Source: Myxococcales bacterium (lineage in GTDB: Bacteria; Myxococcota_A; UBA9042; JABWCM01). From it: a stretch of 64,000 nt of DNA. The notes beneath the pieces are model-generated. The model was not told where the DNA came from, did no database searches, and saw nothing but the letters and a program-made list of their open reading frames with translations. Numbering within the stretch: position 1 is the stretch's first letter; each line of letters begins with the position of its first letter. The position numbers and the translations under genes were made by a program. The stretch lies in the NCBI GenBank assembly GCA_013360285.1, contig JABWCM010000006.1, positions 11,553-75,552 on the forward strand. The letters are read 5' to 3'. Shown piece after piece: positions 43,321-48,408 of the stretch.

Positions 43321-46300
43321 TCACGAACGGGACCGATTTCGGGATTTGATTTCTTTGGGGAGGTGCAAAAGACCAAAACGATCGAGTTTTGCATCCAAAC
43401 CGGGGCGCGATAACCCCAACATCTCGGCGGTTTTTAGTTTTTGGCCCATGGCTTTTTCCAATGCTTCGATAATCACCGCCCGTTCCGCCAAATCGATGTG
43501 TTCCTGTAGCGTCGATATTCCGTCCCAGGTCAGATGAACGTTTGTCGCCGGTGTGCTTTTGGGGGTGGGCGTGCGGGCGGCGGTTAACTTATCGCTGAAA
43601 TGGCGTGGTTCCAGACGGTCCCCCTCGGCCAACACGGTCGCCCTCAACACCTCGTTTTCCAGTTCGCGAACGTTTCCCGGCCATGGATATTGTTCCAGAA
43701 GGTTCAACGCTTCGCGGGTCACCGTCCATCGTTTTCCGGTCTGGGTGGTCTGCTGTTCGATAAAAAACGCAACCAGCAACGCGATGTCCTCGGCACGATC
43801 CCGCAGCGGCGGAATCAGGACTGGAACCACGGCGATTCGAAAATAGAGGTCTTCACGGAAGCGGCCTGCGGCCACCTCCGTGCCCAAATCCCGGTTGGTT
43901 GCACAAATCAGCCGGAAGTGAGCTGTGAGTTCAGTCTGGCCGCCCACGCGACGAAACCGACGTTCCTGAATCACCCGCAGCAGCTTGACCTGATGATCGG
44001 GTCGTAAGTCGCCGATTTCGTCGAGAAACAAGGTGCCGCCGTGCGCCAACTCAACCAACCCCGGCTTGTTTTCGACCGCTCCCGTAAATGCACCCCGTTG
44101 TACGCCAAAAAAGACCGACTCAAACAAGTCCGAAGGAATCGCTCCACAGTTTTCCGAAACAAACGGACCGGAGGCGGCATCGCTGTGTTCGTGGAGAAGT
44201 TGGGCCAACAATTCTTTGCCGACACCGCTTTCGCCCAAAAGCAATACGGGGAGATCGGAACGCGCCACCCGATCCAAGGTTTGTACGGTTTTCTGCATTG
44301 CGGCGCTGCGGCGCACCACCTTGGACCACTTTTTTTGCAGTTGAGAATCCAATCGTGATTTGTGCAGTTCATCTCGAAGTTTGGAAACCTCAGCCAACAA
44401 AGATGCTTTTTGGTTTTTTGCGTCTGTTTCGAGATGGGCCACCCGGTCCCGAATCCGTTGATTGTCTGCAGAAACCGCCGTCAACCGGCCCAAAATCGCT
44501 AAGATAGGCTCCATCAACACCAGCGTATCCACCTTCGGAATTGCAGATGGTTTCGGTTGTGCGTCAAATCTCATTGCTAAGATAGCGGAAAGAACATTGT
44601 CCCAGAAAAGCGGAATCAACAGCCGTTCGATTTGGCCGTTGGATTGGGCGATCCACGGTTTGGGGGCTTGTTGTTGAAGTTCGTTGACCAGCAGCGCAGC
44701 CGGGGCTGGGTCGGGAGCCCCGCTCGTGAAGATAAGCTGCAACGTGTCGGTGTTTACTGCCCATAATGTAACCGATGTTGCGCCATGCTGAGTCTGGTAT
44801 TGTTCCAACCATCGCGCCACCCGATCCCTGGTGTTCGGCAATTCCGCCGGCACAGCGGCAGGCAGCGTGAAGGTTTCCGCGGGCGCCGGCGTGACCAACT
44901 TGTCATCGGGAGGTTCCGGCAAATCCGGCACCGGCAAATCCGCCACCGTCGTCGTTGTCGAATCATCGACTTGTGGTTTCAATTGGGTGGGTACGGGCGT
45001 GTCGTTGACCGGCGGCGGTGTTCGGATACTCCGGACGGCTACAGGAAGACCCGGCGCCGTCAAGGGCCCCTCGGCACCGGTCCAAACACGGAACCGTGCT
45101 GGATGGCAGTTCCACGGGATACCCTGGACAACCATCGACCGGAGCTTCAGACACTGAGCCGACCTATCACGACGCCATCGGGCAACAACCAGGCGCTGAG
45201 CTGCGCCCTGCCCTACTATCTCGGCGGCTTCACAAAACAATCGTAATCCGGGTTCGCCGCCGACCGGCGTTTTGGGTTGACGGTCCAACGTAAACCGGGC
45301 GGCGTCCCACCGGCCGTTCCTCGCCGCACGAAATGTCTCTACCGCGAGGTGGAGATAATCAGCGGTTGCCCAACCTTCGGGTGGCGATGCCGACAAATCG
45401 TTGGGTAATCCGCGGTTTGACGATTCCTCATCGGTCCACTCCGCCCAATCTCCATCCAGAAACCGTGCCGCCTGCAACAACCCCCATGCGTGGTTTTCGA
45501 TCAGCGCCGCACCTTGAGTTTGGGCTTTTGTCCAGGTTTCTTTGGCCAACTCCTTCGCTGCGGAAAATCGGTTTTCCAACAGAAACAACCGCACCCGGCA
45601 CAAGGCGGTGTCCAGATCCACAAAGGTCGACGACGATTGAAGGGCGTCCAGCATAGAAAGTTGGGCTTCGGCGAGTTCAATCGCCGCCGTGTCCACCGCG
45701 AGCGCTGCCAAAATCAAATTCCCCATGGCCTGACCACGCAAATCGCCCAAAGATTTCGCCAGTTGATACGCCGCAGTCGCCGCTTGGGCCGCGTCCAAAA
45801 AATCTTCAGACTCGCGTAACGCAATCGCTAAATTACTGCGGGCAATCCGTTCACCACGCCGATCTCCTAACGCTCGTTTTTGATCTTCGGATTTTCGGTA
45901 GGCGACCGCCGCGTCTTTCCAGCGGCCCTGCTGTAGAGCTAAATTACCAATGCTGTTTTCCAATTTACCAAAAAACAGTTGGGCGGCGCGCGTAGTAGGG
46001 TCAGAAAACCCCTTCAATCCTTGGCTTTTTGCGTCTTTCAATTCGTGAGCGGCTGCGCTGAGTTGCCCACTTAAGGTCAACGCACTTCCCAAAATCAAGG
46101 CGGCCTCGGCACTTTGTCGAAAGTAACGTTCGTCGTTCCGTTGCCCGGATGAGGTCCGTCCGGCGCGGAATAATTGGAGTTGGTTTTGTACCAATTCGGT
46201 TTTTCCGGCGTGTAATGCGACACCGGCGGCGATCAAGTGGGCTTCCTCCAACAACTTCGGATCCGGGTTTGCCCAGGTTTTCACCATTGTCGCGGTTTGC

Positions 46301-48408: not shown

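What the first reader, a model, noticed from the sequence alone, without database searches (positions are those of the whole stretch)
43321..48408. Roughly 1700-aa fusion of a Ser/Thr kinase, NTPase/TPR-like repeats, GAF-like region and a sigma-54 activator with exact GAFTGA motif
A single polypeptide runs from a Hanks-type kinase domain (HGDIKPANIL, IDFG, TKTFMAPE) through about 900 aa of helical repeat/NTPase-like sequence and a Pro-rich linker. It ends in a canonical enhancer-binding-protein AAA+ domain (GVQRGAFTGA, RELEN) and a Fis-type HTH. A eukaryotic-like kinase covalently joined to a sigma-54 activator is an uncommon one-component signalling architecture. Together with the RtcR-like protein and the standalone kinase, it shows a sigma-54/kinase-rich regulatory style. 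The divergently transcribed neighbour, the PHP-domain lipoprotein at 48583, is a candidate target.
Basis: partly seen in the sequence, partly recalled or inferred. Interest (0 to 1): 0.55.

Follow-up and report, generated by a model that had tools for sequence, protein, structure and literature searches.

The report
Ser/Thr kinase fused to sigma-54 activator
One intact 1695-residue gene joins a eukaryote-type protein kinase to a sigma-54 transcription activator; this design is common in myxobacteria-like genomes but apparently unstudied, and this copy belongs to a stripped-down branch whose target genes cannot be found nearby.

Summary
Window 43321-48408 (-) is one uninterrupted 1695-aa ORF. 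It contains a Hanks kinase, a TPR region, a canonical sigma-54 AAA+ domain with GAFTGA, an AAA lid and a Fis-type HTH.

The fusion is not an assembly artefact. The identical ORF and a 62%-identical ortholog with the same neighbours occur in three other assemblies, and about 20 colinear homologs exist.

The architecture is not rare. At least 87 database proteins, mostly from Myxococcota MAGs, combine kinase, STAND NTPase, TPR, GAF and sigma-54 activator.

This gene belongs to a distinct subfamily:
- Walker A and B of the STAND-like domain are lost in 0/21 members retaining them.
- The GAF domain is invisible to Pfam. A confident AlphaFold model (pLDDT 92) whose best PDB matches are all GAF domains recovers it.
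- Kinase and AAA+ catalytic residues are invariant.

Eight sister loci carry a co-operonic beta-propeller lipoprotein. Most also have a near-perfect -24/-12 promoter with TGTAAG repeats facing the divergent operon. The window copy and its ortholog have neither feature.

My verdict is a real, moderately interesting variant of a known but uncharacterised kind.

The parts
43321..48408 (-). Whole gene: 1695-aa kinase / dead-NOD / TPR / mini-GAF / sigma-54 activator fusion
   Evidence: Open frame. Domain hits. Identical ORF in L004 and an intact 62%-identical ortholog in L002/L003.
47635..48387 (-). Hanks-type Ser/Thr kinase domain (residues 8-258). It is non-RD (HGD) and has a short C-lobe.
   Evidence: Pkinase E 2.6e-30. 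Alignment to PknB and 9eed. VAIK Lys, HxD Asp, KPxN Asn and DFG are invariant in 17/17 subfamily members. The segment between DLYALG and HPMRRP is about 25 aa, compared with 50-60 aa in relatives that keep the alphaG region.
47119..47616 (-). P-loop-less STAND-like alpha/beta domain (residues 265-430). Walker A relic is ISGVTDGCAPLL at 47533-47568; Walker B relic is PILIVPGLVG at 47215-47244.
   Evidence: hhalign against the P-loop domain of relatives gave E 3.8e-5 and P 2.5e-4 over 154 columns. In the colinear global alignment, G.GKS faces 'a..Da' and hhhhDD faces 'Llv..p'. A beta-alpha-beta pattern appears in a low-confidence model. 0/21 subfamily members have Walker A.
46489..47118 (-). Helical / winged-helix-like 'arm' region (residues 431-640)
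   Evidence: Colinear with the post-NBD region of the P-loop family in hhalign. Conserved across subfamily hits from profile position about 180 onward. The fold itself is not confidently modelled.
45154..46488 (-). TPR-like superhelix (residues 641-1085), with the conserved core GxLENxxGNLA...GDRRGERIAxSNLAIALRE
   Evidence: TPR_12 at 817-885, E 7e-5. TPR_1/TPR_12/TPR_MalT hits in 9-10 of 12 subfamily members. Exhaustive HMMER hits to TPR proteins.
44833..45036 (-). Pro/Thr-rich variable linker (residues 1125-1192)
   Evidence: 24% Pro and 18% Ser+Thr. Unalignable and length-variable in the subfamily. pLDDT below 30.
44530..44832 (-). Minimal GAF-like domain (residues 1193-1293)
   Evidence: AlphaFold2 with a 16-sequence alignment gave pLDDT 92.2 and topology a-b-b-a-b-b-b. 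The top Foldseek PDB hits are all GAF domains, including those of sigma-54 regulators 3k2n, 4g3k and 4g3v. hhalign against the GAF region of relatives gave P 4.8e-4 to 5e-3. No Pfam GAF hit.
44353..44529 (-). Long signalling helix linking GAF to AAA+ (residues 1294-1352), with conserved Ser/Thr at 1342 and 1351
   Evidence: A single helix, residues 107-162 of the model, at pLDDT 94-98. S/T is conserved in 15/17 and 17/17 sequences at these two positions.
43819..44316 (-). Sigma-54 interaction AAA+ domain (residues 1365-1530). Walker A GESGVGKE at 44212-44235; GAFTGA at 44077-44094; Walker B DEIG at 44011-44022.
   Evidence: Sigma54_activat E 9e-64. Best solved relatives are NifA 9qq6, ZraR and NtrC1, at E 1e-69 to 1e-67. 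The motifs are invariant in 17/17 sequences.
43555..43803 (-). AAA+ lid domain (residues 1536-1618), including WPGNVRELEN
   Evidence: AAA_lid_14 E 1.4e-22.
43375..43488 (-). Fis-type HTH (residues 1641-1678). The recognition helix SRPGLDAKL is shared by the whole subfamily.
   Evidence: HTH_8 E 3.5e-8. Alignment.
48409..48582 (.). Divergent intergenic region. It has no -24/-12 element. Blocks conserved with the ortholog include the palindrome TGACAAnnTTGTG at 48490-48502 and a TTTAC element.
   Evidence: Alignment with L002. No GG-N10-GC on either strand. No sigma-70 consensus. The palindrome is not repeated significantly elsewhere.
41757..43205 (-). CitMHS_2 transporter gene, 115 bp downstream on the same strand. 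The adjacency is conserved in the ortholog. A conserved 16-nt block, CGCTTGAAGGCACCAT, lies at 43255-43270.
   Evidence: CitMHS_2 E 6e-158. Synteny. The conserved block and the RBS/start are seen. The block does not fit sigma-54 spacing (my reading).
48583..51861 (+). The adjacency is conserved in the ortholog.
   Evidence: Only CarboxypepD_reg is found, at E 2.4e-13, and no PHP domain. Lipobox VVSAC read. Synteny.

Best explanation
The gene encodes a cytoplasmic, single-protein signalling device of a family typical of Myxococcota.

Output module (established EBP mechanism): the C-terminal third is a standard bacterial enhancer-binding protein.
- The HTH docks it on an upstream enhancer.
- The AAA+ domain assembles into a ring.
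- The GAFTGA loop uses ATP hydrolysis to open sigma-54 RNA polymerase closed complexes.

Input module (inferred): the N-terminal two thirds are a PknK/MalT-like sensor.
- It carries a catalytically competent non-RD Hanks kinase.
- It has a STAND-type oligomerisation domain that can no longer bind nucleotide.
- It has a TPR superhelix as the likely ligand- or partner-binding surface.
- A flexible Pro/Thr-rich tether leads to a minimal GAF domain whose long exit helix runs directly into the AAA+ domain.

Proposed mechanism (inferred):
- The GAF domain and its helix hold the AAA+ domain in an assembly-incompetent state, as in other GAF-containing activators.
- A signal read by the TPR/dead-NOD module switches on the kinase.
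- The kinase phosphorylates Ser/Thr in cis or within the oligomer. Candidates are the tether and the conserved Ser/Thr of the signalling helix. This releases ring assembly.
- Because the NOD has lost its nucleotide switch, kinase activity rather than ATP/ADP exchange would be the decision step.

Shown here:
- The ORF, the domain folds and motifs, and the loss of Walker A/B.
- Membership of the family and subfamily.
- In sister loci, adjacent sigma-54 promoters with TGTAAG repeats.

Inferred:
- The direction of control, the phospho-acceptor and the signal.

The target promoter of this particular copy is not in the window.
For: - Domain calls and motifs.
- Invariance of kinase and AAA+ catalytic residues across 17 members that are at most 50% identical to each other. 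This argues for selection on both activities.
- Kinase, middle region and EBP each rank the same subfamily members first. The fusion is therefore old and inherited as a unit.
- Colinear profile alignment of the whole middle region to the P-loop/GAF-bearing family: Prob 99.7, E 1.8e-26, 964 columns.
- GAF fold with a continuous exit helix, pLDDT 92. GAF domains of sigma-54 regulators are among the matches.
- In 8 sister loci, a near-perfect -24/-12 promoter faces the divergent operon. Four score 20.5/20.5, one 19.5 and one 18, against about 0.05 sites of score >=19.5 expected in those 2 kb from the rest of the loci.
- TGTAAG/CTTACA repeats are enriched about 50-fold in these regions.
- The HTH recognition helix is identical in the query.
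- PknK is described as a STAND-family transcription-regulating kinase that phosphorylates response regulators (PMC9045387).
Against: - No phospho-acceptor, ligand or target has been identified.
- This copy and its ortholog lack the adjacent sigma-54 promoter, the TGTAAG cluster and the co-operonic lipoprotein that characterise the other eight subfamily loci. Their wiring may therefore differ.
- The dead-NOD fold rests on profile comparisons of moderate strength (P 2.5e-4 to 3.8e-5) and a low-confidence model.
- rpoN was not seen, because only 64 kb is available.
- The short kinase C-lobe could affect activity.
- No literature on this architecture was found in the searchable library. Nothing here has been tested experimentally.
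Confidence: 0.55

Rival explanations
1. Two outputs rather than one pathway. The kinase phosphorylates separate proteins in trans, for example FHA-domain or other activators, as PknK does with response regulators. The activator module is controlled independently by a small ligand bound to the GAF domain. The fusion merely co-localises the two.
For: - PknK acts on other transcription factors (PMC9045387).
- One sister locus (L026) encodes an FHA-domain sigma-54 activator two genes downstream.
- Another sister locus (L025) has a second small activator next door.
- The window itself holds another kinase and another activator-like gene.
- The GAF fold is a classic small-molecule sensor.
Against: - The GAF domain is pared down to about 100 residues, lacking the helices that usually cover the pocket.
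- FHA partners are seen in only 1 of 10 loci.
- The kinase, middle region and activator co-evolve as one unit.
Confidence: 0.25
2. A sigma-54-independent or dual-mode regulator. In this lineage the protein acts mainly as a DNA-bound repressor or autoregulator at its own or the divergent promoter through the HTH, with no adjacent sigma-54 promoter to activate.
For: - No -24/-12 element lies next to the gene, and none scores >=19.5 in 64 kb.
- A conserved palindrome and TTTAC elements lie in its own upstream region.
- The abstract of the PexR paper reports an enhancer-binding protein with dual behaviour in Myxococcus (PMC12754779). I read the abstract only.
Against: - GAFTGA, Walker A/B, the arginine-finger region and sensor II are all intact and invariant. 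This would not be expected if contact with sigma-54 were dispensable.
- Enhancer-binding proteins often act on distant operons.
Confidence: 0.12
3. The N-terminal kinase is a pseudokinase or structural relic. As with the dead NOD, only the TPR/GAF parts still signal.
For: - The neighbouring NOD has already lost its catalytic motifs.
- The kinase has a shortened C-lobe and matches only positions 10-194 of the 263-position Pfam model.
Against: - Every catalytic residue is present: glycine loop, VAIK Lys, alphaC Glu, HxD Asp, KPxN Asn and DFG.
- These residues are conserved in 17/17 diverged members, and APE in 15/17.
Confidence: 0.07
4. Assembly or annotation artefact: two adjacent genes, a kinase and an activator, were joined by a frameshift or chimeric contig.
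For: None found.
Against: - The same uninterrupted ORF occurs in an independent assembly (L004, 100% identical).
- A 62%-identical ortholog occurs in two further assemblies with the same flanking genes.
- About 20 colinear full-length homologs of 1500-1750 aa exist.
Confidence: 0.01

Closest known systems
Uncharacterised 'sigma 54-interacting transcriptional regulator' / 'PknK' fusions of Myxococcota. Architecture: Pkinase, nSTAND/AAA_16, TPR, GAF, Sigma54_activat, HTH_8. Example: Polyangium sp. 6x1 protein P0042.
   Same: - Same domain order and size, 1400-1750 aa.
- Same non-RD HGD kinase signature (64/66 proteins).
- The middle region is colinear at Prob 99.7%.
- Same GAFTGA activator.
   Different: - The query's subfamily has no Walker A/B. 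About half of the wider family keeps a Walker A at the expected position.
- There is no Pfam-detectable GAF or NTPase domain.
- Identity outside the kinase and activator is undetectable by BLAST.
The P-loop-less subfamily itself. Members: P0003, P0125/P0273, P0126, P0128, P0129, P0133 (MGB0592508.1, Myxococcota MAG), P0134, P0139, P0141, P0146, P0156, P0161, P0169, P0209, P0218.
   Same: - All domains and all catalytic residues match.
- Dead NOD, mini-GAF and an identical HTH recognition helix are shared.
- Kinase identity is 37-46% and activator identity 48-54%.
   Different: - Eight of eight examined sister loci have a translationally coupled beta-propeller lipoprotein gene downstream.
- Most have a divergent sigma-54 promoter with TGTAAG repeats.
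- The window copy and its ortholog instead have a CitMHS_2 transporter downstream and no such promoter.
Mycobacterium tuberculosis PknK (STAND-family Ser/Thr kinase) and E. coli MalT (STAND transcription activator)
   Same: - A soluble kinase followed by a NOD-type domain and MalT-like TPR sensor repeats.
- Linked to transcription control (PMC9045387; PMC4381067, abstract).
- TPR_MalT hits occur in subfamily members.
   Different: - PknK and MalT use an ATP-binding NOD. Here the nucleotide site is gone.
- PknK has no DNA-binding or AAA+ activator output. MalT works with sigma-70 through a LuxR-type HTH (my knowledge).
- No detectable sequence similarity to PknK beyond the kinase domain was tested here.
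GAF-containing sigma-54 activators (NifA, NorR, FhlA, Aquifex Nlh1/Nlh2)
   Same: - GAF, helix, AAA+(GAFTGA), HTH_8 module order.
- NifA (9qq6) is the best solved sequence match to the activator part.
- The Nlh1/Nlh2 and Chlorobium regulator GAF domains are among the fold matches.
   Different: - The GAF domain here is minimal, with five strands and two helices before the exit helix, and is not recognisable by sequence.
- It is preceded by about 1190 residues of kinase/NOD/TPR that those proteins lack.
Inactive STAND (iSTAND) NTPases of conflict systems
   Same: They are a precedent for STAND-type modules that have lost catalytic motifs yet are conserved (PMC7159879).
   Different: They have a different context (vWA-MoxR systems) and no kinase or sigma-54 activator. 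Homology to them was not tested.

Membership tests
Bacterial enhancer-binding proteins (sigma-54 activators) | AAA+ domain of the Sigma54_activat family with Walker A (GxxGxGKE) and Walker B (DE) | tested here: met
   PF00158 E 9e-64. GESGVGKE at 1392-1399 and DEIG at 1463-1466. Aligned to NifA, ZraR and NtrC1.
Bacterial enhancer-binding proteins (sigma-54 activators) | Intact GAFTGA loop for contacting sigma-54 | tested here: met
   GAFTGA at 1439-1444, invariant in 17/17 subfamily members.
Bacterial enhancer-binding proteins (sigma-54 activators) | C-terminal enhancer-binding HTH | tested here: met
   HTH_8 E 3.5e-8 at 1641-1678.
Bacterial enhancer-binding proteins (sigma-54 activators) | A cognate -24/-12 promoter and enhancer, and rpoN in the genome | tested here: inconclusive
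   None is adjacent and none scores >=19.5 in the 64-kb window. Sister loci do have them. rpoN cannot be checked from one window.
Hanks-type (eukaryote-like) Ser/Thr protein kinases | Catalytic core residues: Gly-rich loop, VAIK Lys, alphaC Glu, HxD Asp, KPxN Asn, DFG, APE | tested here: met
   Pkinase E 2.6e-30. Residue-by-residue alignment to PknB. Conservation table. HGD instead of HRD makes it a non-RD kinase.
Hanks-type (eukaryote-like) Ser/Thr protein kinases | Complete C-lobe (subdomains X-XI) and demonstrated phosphotransfer | tested here: inconclusive
   The Pfam match stops at profile position 194 of 263. The alphaG-equivalent segment is missing, but the subdomain XI Arg (HPMRRP) is present. 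Activity is not testable with these tools.
STAND NTPases (MalT/PknK-like NOD) | P-loop NTPase domain with Walker A GxxxxGK[ST] and Walker B hhhhD[DE] | tested here: not met
   ISGVTDGCAPLL and PILIVPGLVG occupy those positions. 0/21 subfamily members have a Walker A. No AAA_16, NB-ARC or nSTAND Pfam hit appears even at E<=1.
STAND NTPases (MalT/PknK-like NOD) | Homology of the domain, and a NOD, arm, TPR-sensor order | tested here: met
   hhalign gave E 3.8e-5 and P 2.5e-4 locally, and Prob 99.7 / E 1.8e-26 for the colinear whole region against relatives that carry nSTAND_NTPase5/AAA_16 hits. The module is therefore a derived, inactive STAND, not an active member.
GAF domains | Sequence match to GAF profiles (PF01590/PF13185/PF13492) | tested here: not met
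   No hit in the query or in 12 subfamily members at E<=1. A profile search of PDB sequences found no GAF.
GAF domains | GAF fold: antiparallel sheet backed by helices, with N- and C-terminal helices on one face | tested here: met
   The model has pLDDT 92.2. Nine PDB matches at E<=1e-3 are all GAF or GAF-fold proteins, with TM 0.45-0.54. hhalign against the GAF region of relatives gave P 4.8e-4, versus 0.03-0.8 for cross-controls.
TPR repeat proteins | Tandem 34-residue helix-turn-helix repeats detectable by profile | tested here: met
   TPR_12 E 7e-5 in the query, below the gathering score. TPR_1/TPR_12/TPR_2/TPR_MalT hits down to E 4e-13 in 9-10 of 12 subfamily members at the aligned position. 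TPR proteins dominate the exhaustive search.

The most novel reading that the evidence does not exclude
The P-loop-less subfamily may be a previously undescribed way of controlling a sigma-54 activator. In it, a covalently attached Hanks kinase replaces both the aspartyl-phosphate receiver of NtrC-type activators and the nucleotide switch of STAND proteins. Ser/Thr phosphorylation of the tether or signalling helix would license AAA+ ring assembly.

In most members this device forms a conserved three-part module:
- a translationally coupled beta-propeller lipoprotein;
- a divergent sigma-54 operon, often AlgX-like SGNH / carbamoyltransferase / DUF5989, which suggests envelope or polysaccharide modification;
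- an enhancer built of TGTAAG repeats.

The window copy would then be a rewired offshoot of this module.
Probability: 0.3. Interest if true: 0.6.

Novelty: new variant of a known kind. Interest (0 to 1): 0.42.

Why it matters
Sigma-54 activators are usually switched by receiver-domain phosphorylation, small ligands or partner proteins. A kinase built into the activator would link eukaryote-like Ser/Thr signalling directly to enhancer-dependent transcription in a single polypeptide.

Myxobacteria are known for very large sets of both kinases and sigma-54 activators, and how the two networks connect is only partly understood. This family is abundant in their genomes, yet I found no paper on it.

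The analysis gives concrete handles for experiments:
- a coherent subfamily with a dead nucleotide switch;
- a confidently modelled mini-GAF and exit helix;
- candidate phospho-acceptor positions;
- in sister genomes, a defined promoter, a candidate enhancer motif and a partner lipoprotein.

For genome annotation, it shows that Pfam alone misses two of the protein's domains.

Tried and rejected
1. Sigma-54 promoter next to the gene.
- The consensus search was at chance level, with 30 matches found against 34 expected.
- A weighted GG-N10-GC scan found nothing in 48380-48620. Only a weak site scoring 14/20.5 lies before the transporter gene.
- The conserved block CGCTTGAAGGCACCAT (43255-43270) contains GGCAC, but the downstream GC is 3 nt out of register in both genomes. 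I rejected it as a -24/-12 promoter.

2. Sigma-70 consensus scan of 43000-48800: no hit.

3. Motif searches in the window.
- The conserved palindrome TGACAAnnTTGTG and the 16-nt block do not recur above chance.
- TGTAAG/CTTACA clusters are absent from the window.

4. Word-indexed homolog searches with the middle region, both alone and as a 12-sequence profile, returned only P0001 and P0002. The exhaustive HMMER search was needed instead.

5. AlphaFold on residues 261-1340 with 2 sequences gave pLDDT 39.8. It is unusable except for the secondary-structure pattern.

6. A profile of the pre-activator region searched against PDB sequences gave only coiled-coil noise.

7. Genome-collection scans.
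- Alignments A4 and A5 were too divergent for pattern design.
- A3 found no close relative in GTDB species genomes.

9. Literature.
- Perez et al. 2008 (myxobacterial kinome) could not be opened.
- Five full-text searches found no description of kinase-activator fusions.

10. My initial guess that the organism was a planctomycete, based on FGE-sulfatase, hemopexin and many kinases, was dropped.

11. A relationship between the 1092-aa divergent lipoprotein and the subfamily's partner lipoprotein was not supported: tblastn gave E>0.2.
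Full report
**Observation**

Window 43321-48492 (-) is one open frame. The ATG at 48408 is the start conserved with the ortholog and gives 1695 aa.

Pfam finds these domains:
- Pkinase, residues 24-209, E 2.6e-30.
- Sigma54_activat, 1365-1530, E 9e-64.
- AAA_lid_14, 1536-1618.
- HTH_8, 1641-1678.
- A sub-threshold TPR_12 at 817-885.

NCBIfam matches only generic activator models over 1300-1680, all far below their equivalog cut-offs. 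These matches are far beyond chance.

**Not an artefact**

- The identical ORF sits on an independent Logan contig (L004).
- A 62%-identical, uninterrupted ortholog (P0002, 1683 aa) sits on two further assemblies with the same neighbours. Those neighbours are a 1092-aa CarboxypepD_reg lipoprotein (divergent), a CitMHS_2 transporter (downstream), a roughly 1430-1480-aa unknown protein and a CNNM protein.

**How common is the architecture**

The full-length search returned more than 80 clusters of 1400-1750-aa proteins with Pkinase, AAA_16/AAA_22/nSTAND, TPR, GAF, Sigma54_activat and HTH_8. Sources name them 'sigma 54-interacting transcriptional regulator' (Myxococcales, Deltaproteobacteria, Polyangiaceae, Polyangium sp. 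6x1, and a few Bryobacteraceae/Gemmatimonadales) or 'PknK'.

The fusion is therefore frequent in one part of the tree. I found no paper describing it in the searchable library. The one paper I recalled as relevant could not be opened.

**Organism**

The window's ABC-F protein is 74% identical to one in 'MAG: Deltaproteobacteria bacterium HK-STAS-MYXO-49' and 62% identical to one in a Myxococcota MAG. The window therefore comes from an uncultured myxobacteria-like lineage, which fits the family's distribution.

**The middle 1100 residues**

BLAST and the word-indexed searches see only P0001 and P0002 there. An exhaustive HMMER search with a two-sequence profile found about 16 clusters (at 50% identity) of colinear 1500-1750-aa proteins.
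- All have kinase, TPR and activator hits but no NTPase or GAF Pfam hit.
- One is MGB0592508.1 from a Myxococcota MAG.
- The query's kinase and activator domains both rank these proteins above all others, at 37-46% and 48-54% identity.

They form a subfamily in which the fusion has been inherited as a unit.

**Dead NOD**

- In the subfamily alignment, the position of Walker A reads ISGVTDGCAPLL in the query and similar non-P-loop sequences in all members. The Walker B position reads PILIVPGLVG.
- No subfamily member (0/21) has [GA]xxxxGK[ST] between kinase and activator. About half of the 66 other fusions keep one at residues 285-350.
- Profile-profile comparison supports homology to the P-loop domain. 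Locally it gives E 3.8e-5 and P 2.5e-4 over 106-154 columns, against cross-controls of 0.03-0.8.
- The whole middle region aligns colinearly to that of P-loop/GAF-bearing relatives at Prob 99.7, E 1.8e-26, over 964 columns.
- A low-confidence model still shows the alternating strand-helix pattern expected of such a domain.

I read this as a derived, nucleotide-blind STAND module. Inactive STAND modules have a precedent in other systems (PMC7159879).

**Mini-GAF**

- Residues 1188-1350, modelled with a 16-sequence subfamily alignment, gave pLDDT 92.2. The topology is helix, two strands, helix, three strands, then one roughly 55-residue helix.
- All best Foldseek matches in the PDB are GAF domains or GAF-fold enzymes. 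They include the GAF domains of sigma-54 regulators 3k2n, 4g3k (Nlh1) and 4g3v (Nlh2).
- Profile comparison to the GAF region of relatives agrees, at P 4.8e-4 to 5e-3.

**Catalytic competence**

- The kinase keeps the glycine loop, VAIK Lys, alphaC Glu, HGD Asp, KPAN Asn, DFG and APE. These are invariant or nearly so in 17 diverged members.
- HGD/HAD in place of HRD is a family signature. By general knowledge it marks a non-RD kinase that does not depend on activation-loop phosphorylation.
- The stretch between subdomains IX and XI is short.
- The activator keeps GESGVGKE, DE(I/V/L)G and GAFTGA in 17/17. It aligns end to end with NifA, ZraR and NtrC1.

**Context in sister genomes**

In eight of eight other subfamily loci, the gene's stop overlaps or lies within 50 bp of the start of a 390-450-aa gene. 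That gene encodes a lipoprotein with a lipobox, an acidic linker and a propeller-like domain, 37-49% identical between loci.

The divergent intergenic region carries a near-perfect -24/-12 promoter pointing away from the activator gene:

| Locus | Site | Score (max 20.5) |
|---|---|---|
| L024 | TGGCACGCGCCTTGCT | 20.5 |
| L025 | TGGCACGTGCCTTGCT | 20.5 |
| L027 | TGGCACGGTGGTTGCA | 20.5 |
| L028 | TGGCACGGGCCTTGCT | 20.5 |
| L026 | TGGCATGGGGCTTGCT | 19.5 |
| L001 | TGGCGTGGTCCTTGCT | 18 |
| L023 | TGGCACGAGGTTTGTA | GT at -12, so not scored |

- L029 has no site scoring above 16.5.
- Only four other sites of score >=19.5 occur in the remaining roughly 149 kb of these loci. About 0.05 would therefore be expected in the 2 kb of intergenic DNA, where five are seen.
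- Between promoter and activator gene, TGTAAG/CTTACA occurs 9 times in 6 of 8 regions, about 50-fold over locus background. ATGTAA occurs 7 times. Part of this excess may reflect AT-richer intergenic DNA.
- In four loci the divergent operon is AlgX-like SGNH, a 250-aa protein, carbamoyltransferase, DUF5989 and a 450-570-aa protein. In others it is a small Dioxygenase_C/CarboxypepD_reg protein, a desaturase operon or a vWA protein.
- The HTH recognition helix SRPGLDAKL is the same in all members, including the query.

**This copy differs**

- The partner lipoprotein is absent from the window and from L002: tblastn gives E>0.2.
- The downstream gene is a CitMHS_2 transporter.
- Positions 48380-48620 have no GG-N10-GC at all.
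- The best site in 64 kb scores 18.5 and lies far away.
- There are no TGTAAG clusters.
- Conserved non-coding blocks exist: a palindrome at 48490-48502, TTTAC elements, and CGCTTGAAGGCACCAT at 43255-43270. None fits sigma-54 geometry or recurs.
- The proposed target lipoprotein has only a CarboxypepD_reg hit and no PHP domain.

The target of this copy is therefore unknown.

**Mechanism**

The output step, in which an enhancer-bound AAA+ ring remodels sigma-54 holoenzyme through GAFTGA, follows from established knowledge of the family. It is also supported by the promoters found next to sister genes.

The input logic is inferred. A PknK/MalT-like sensor has lost its nucleotide switch, an active kinase remains, and the GAF exit helix is continuous with the AAA+ domain. 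This suggests kinase-dependent release of an auto-inhibited activator. Candidate acceptors are the Pro/Thr tether and the conserved S/T at 1342 and 1351.

Rival readings are given separately with their tests:
- trans-acting kinase with an independent GAF ligand;
- sigma-54-independent DNA binding;
- pseudokinase.

**Verdict**

The gene is a divergent member of an abundant but apparently unstudied myxobacterial family, so it is ordinary as an architecture. It is of moderate interest for three reasons: the dead NOD, the hidden GAF, and the conserved promoter/enhancer/lipoprotein module that its sisters reveal and it has lost.

Noticed in passing
L023, L024, L025, L026, L027, L028, L029, L001 (activator gene at about 8001-12900 in most loci): Sister genes of the subfamily share a conserved module. 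A beta-propeller lipoprotein gene is translationally coupled downstream. A near-perfect sigma-54 promoter with TGTAAG/CTTACA repeats lies in the divergent intergenic region. In 4 loci this faces an AlgX-like SGNH / carbamoyltransferase / DUF5989 operon.
   Followed up: partly
window 18108-19697 (+), with 12428-18111 upstream: A second activator-like gene (529 aa) has GAFTDA instead of GAFTGA and a weak CARF-like N-terminal hit, so it is RtcR-like. It follows, on the same strand, an SF1 helicase (AAA_11/AAA_12), an unknown 526-aa ORF and a PLD-family protein. A sigma-54-like site, TGGCATGGATGGTGCA, lies at 12481-12496 near the start of the helicase ORF.
   Followed up: partly
window 20224-25735 (+): A Fur-family regulator ORF is followed by two tandem 749-aa catalase-peroxidase (KatG-type) genes. 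This is an apparent duplication.
   Followed up: no
window 37349-41779 (+): A 1476-aa ORF has no Pfam hit and unusually strong positive GC skew (0.15-0.22 over 38-42 kb). It is conserved next to the transporter gene in the ortholog locus (1433 aa in L002).
   Followed up: no
window 4480-7017 (-): An 845-aa protein carries ten hemopexin repeats (E 3e-145), which is unusual for bacteria.
   Followed up: no
window 7735-9900 (+): A standalone 721-aa Ser/Thr kinase has its kinase domain at residues 401-598, preceded by 400 residues without any Pfam hit.
   Followed up: no
window 48537-48554: A direct repeat, ACGGGTAG-N2-ACGGGTAG, lies just upstream of the divergent lipoprotein gene. It is partly conserved in L002, within the GTAGACTACTC block.
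   Followed up: no
L026 14323-15756 and L025 14074-15039: One sister locus encodes an FHA-domain sigma-54 activator two genes downstream of the kinase-activator. Another has a short activator with AAA+ and HTH only. Both are possible phospho-dependent partners.
   Followed up: no
proteins P0004-P0090 (wider family): About half of the other kinase-activator fusions also lack a canonical Walker A at the NOD position, for example GSGR[ST]. Loss of the nucleotide site therefore seems recurrent in this family.
   Followed up: partly
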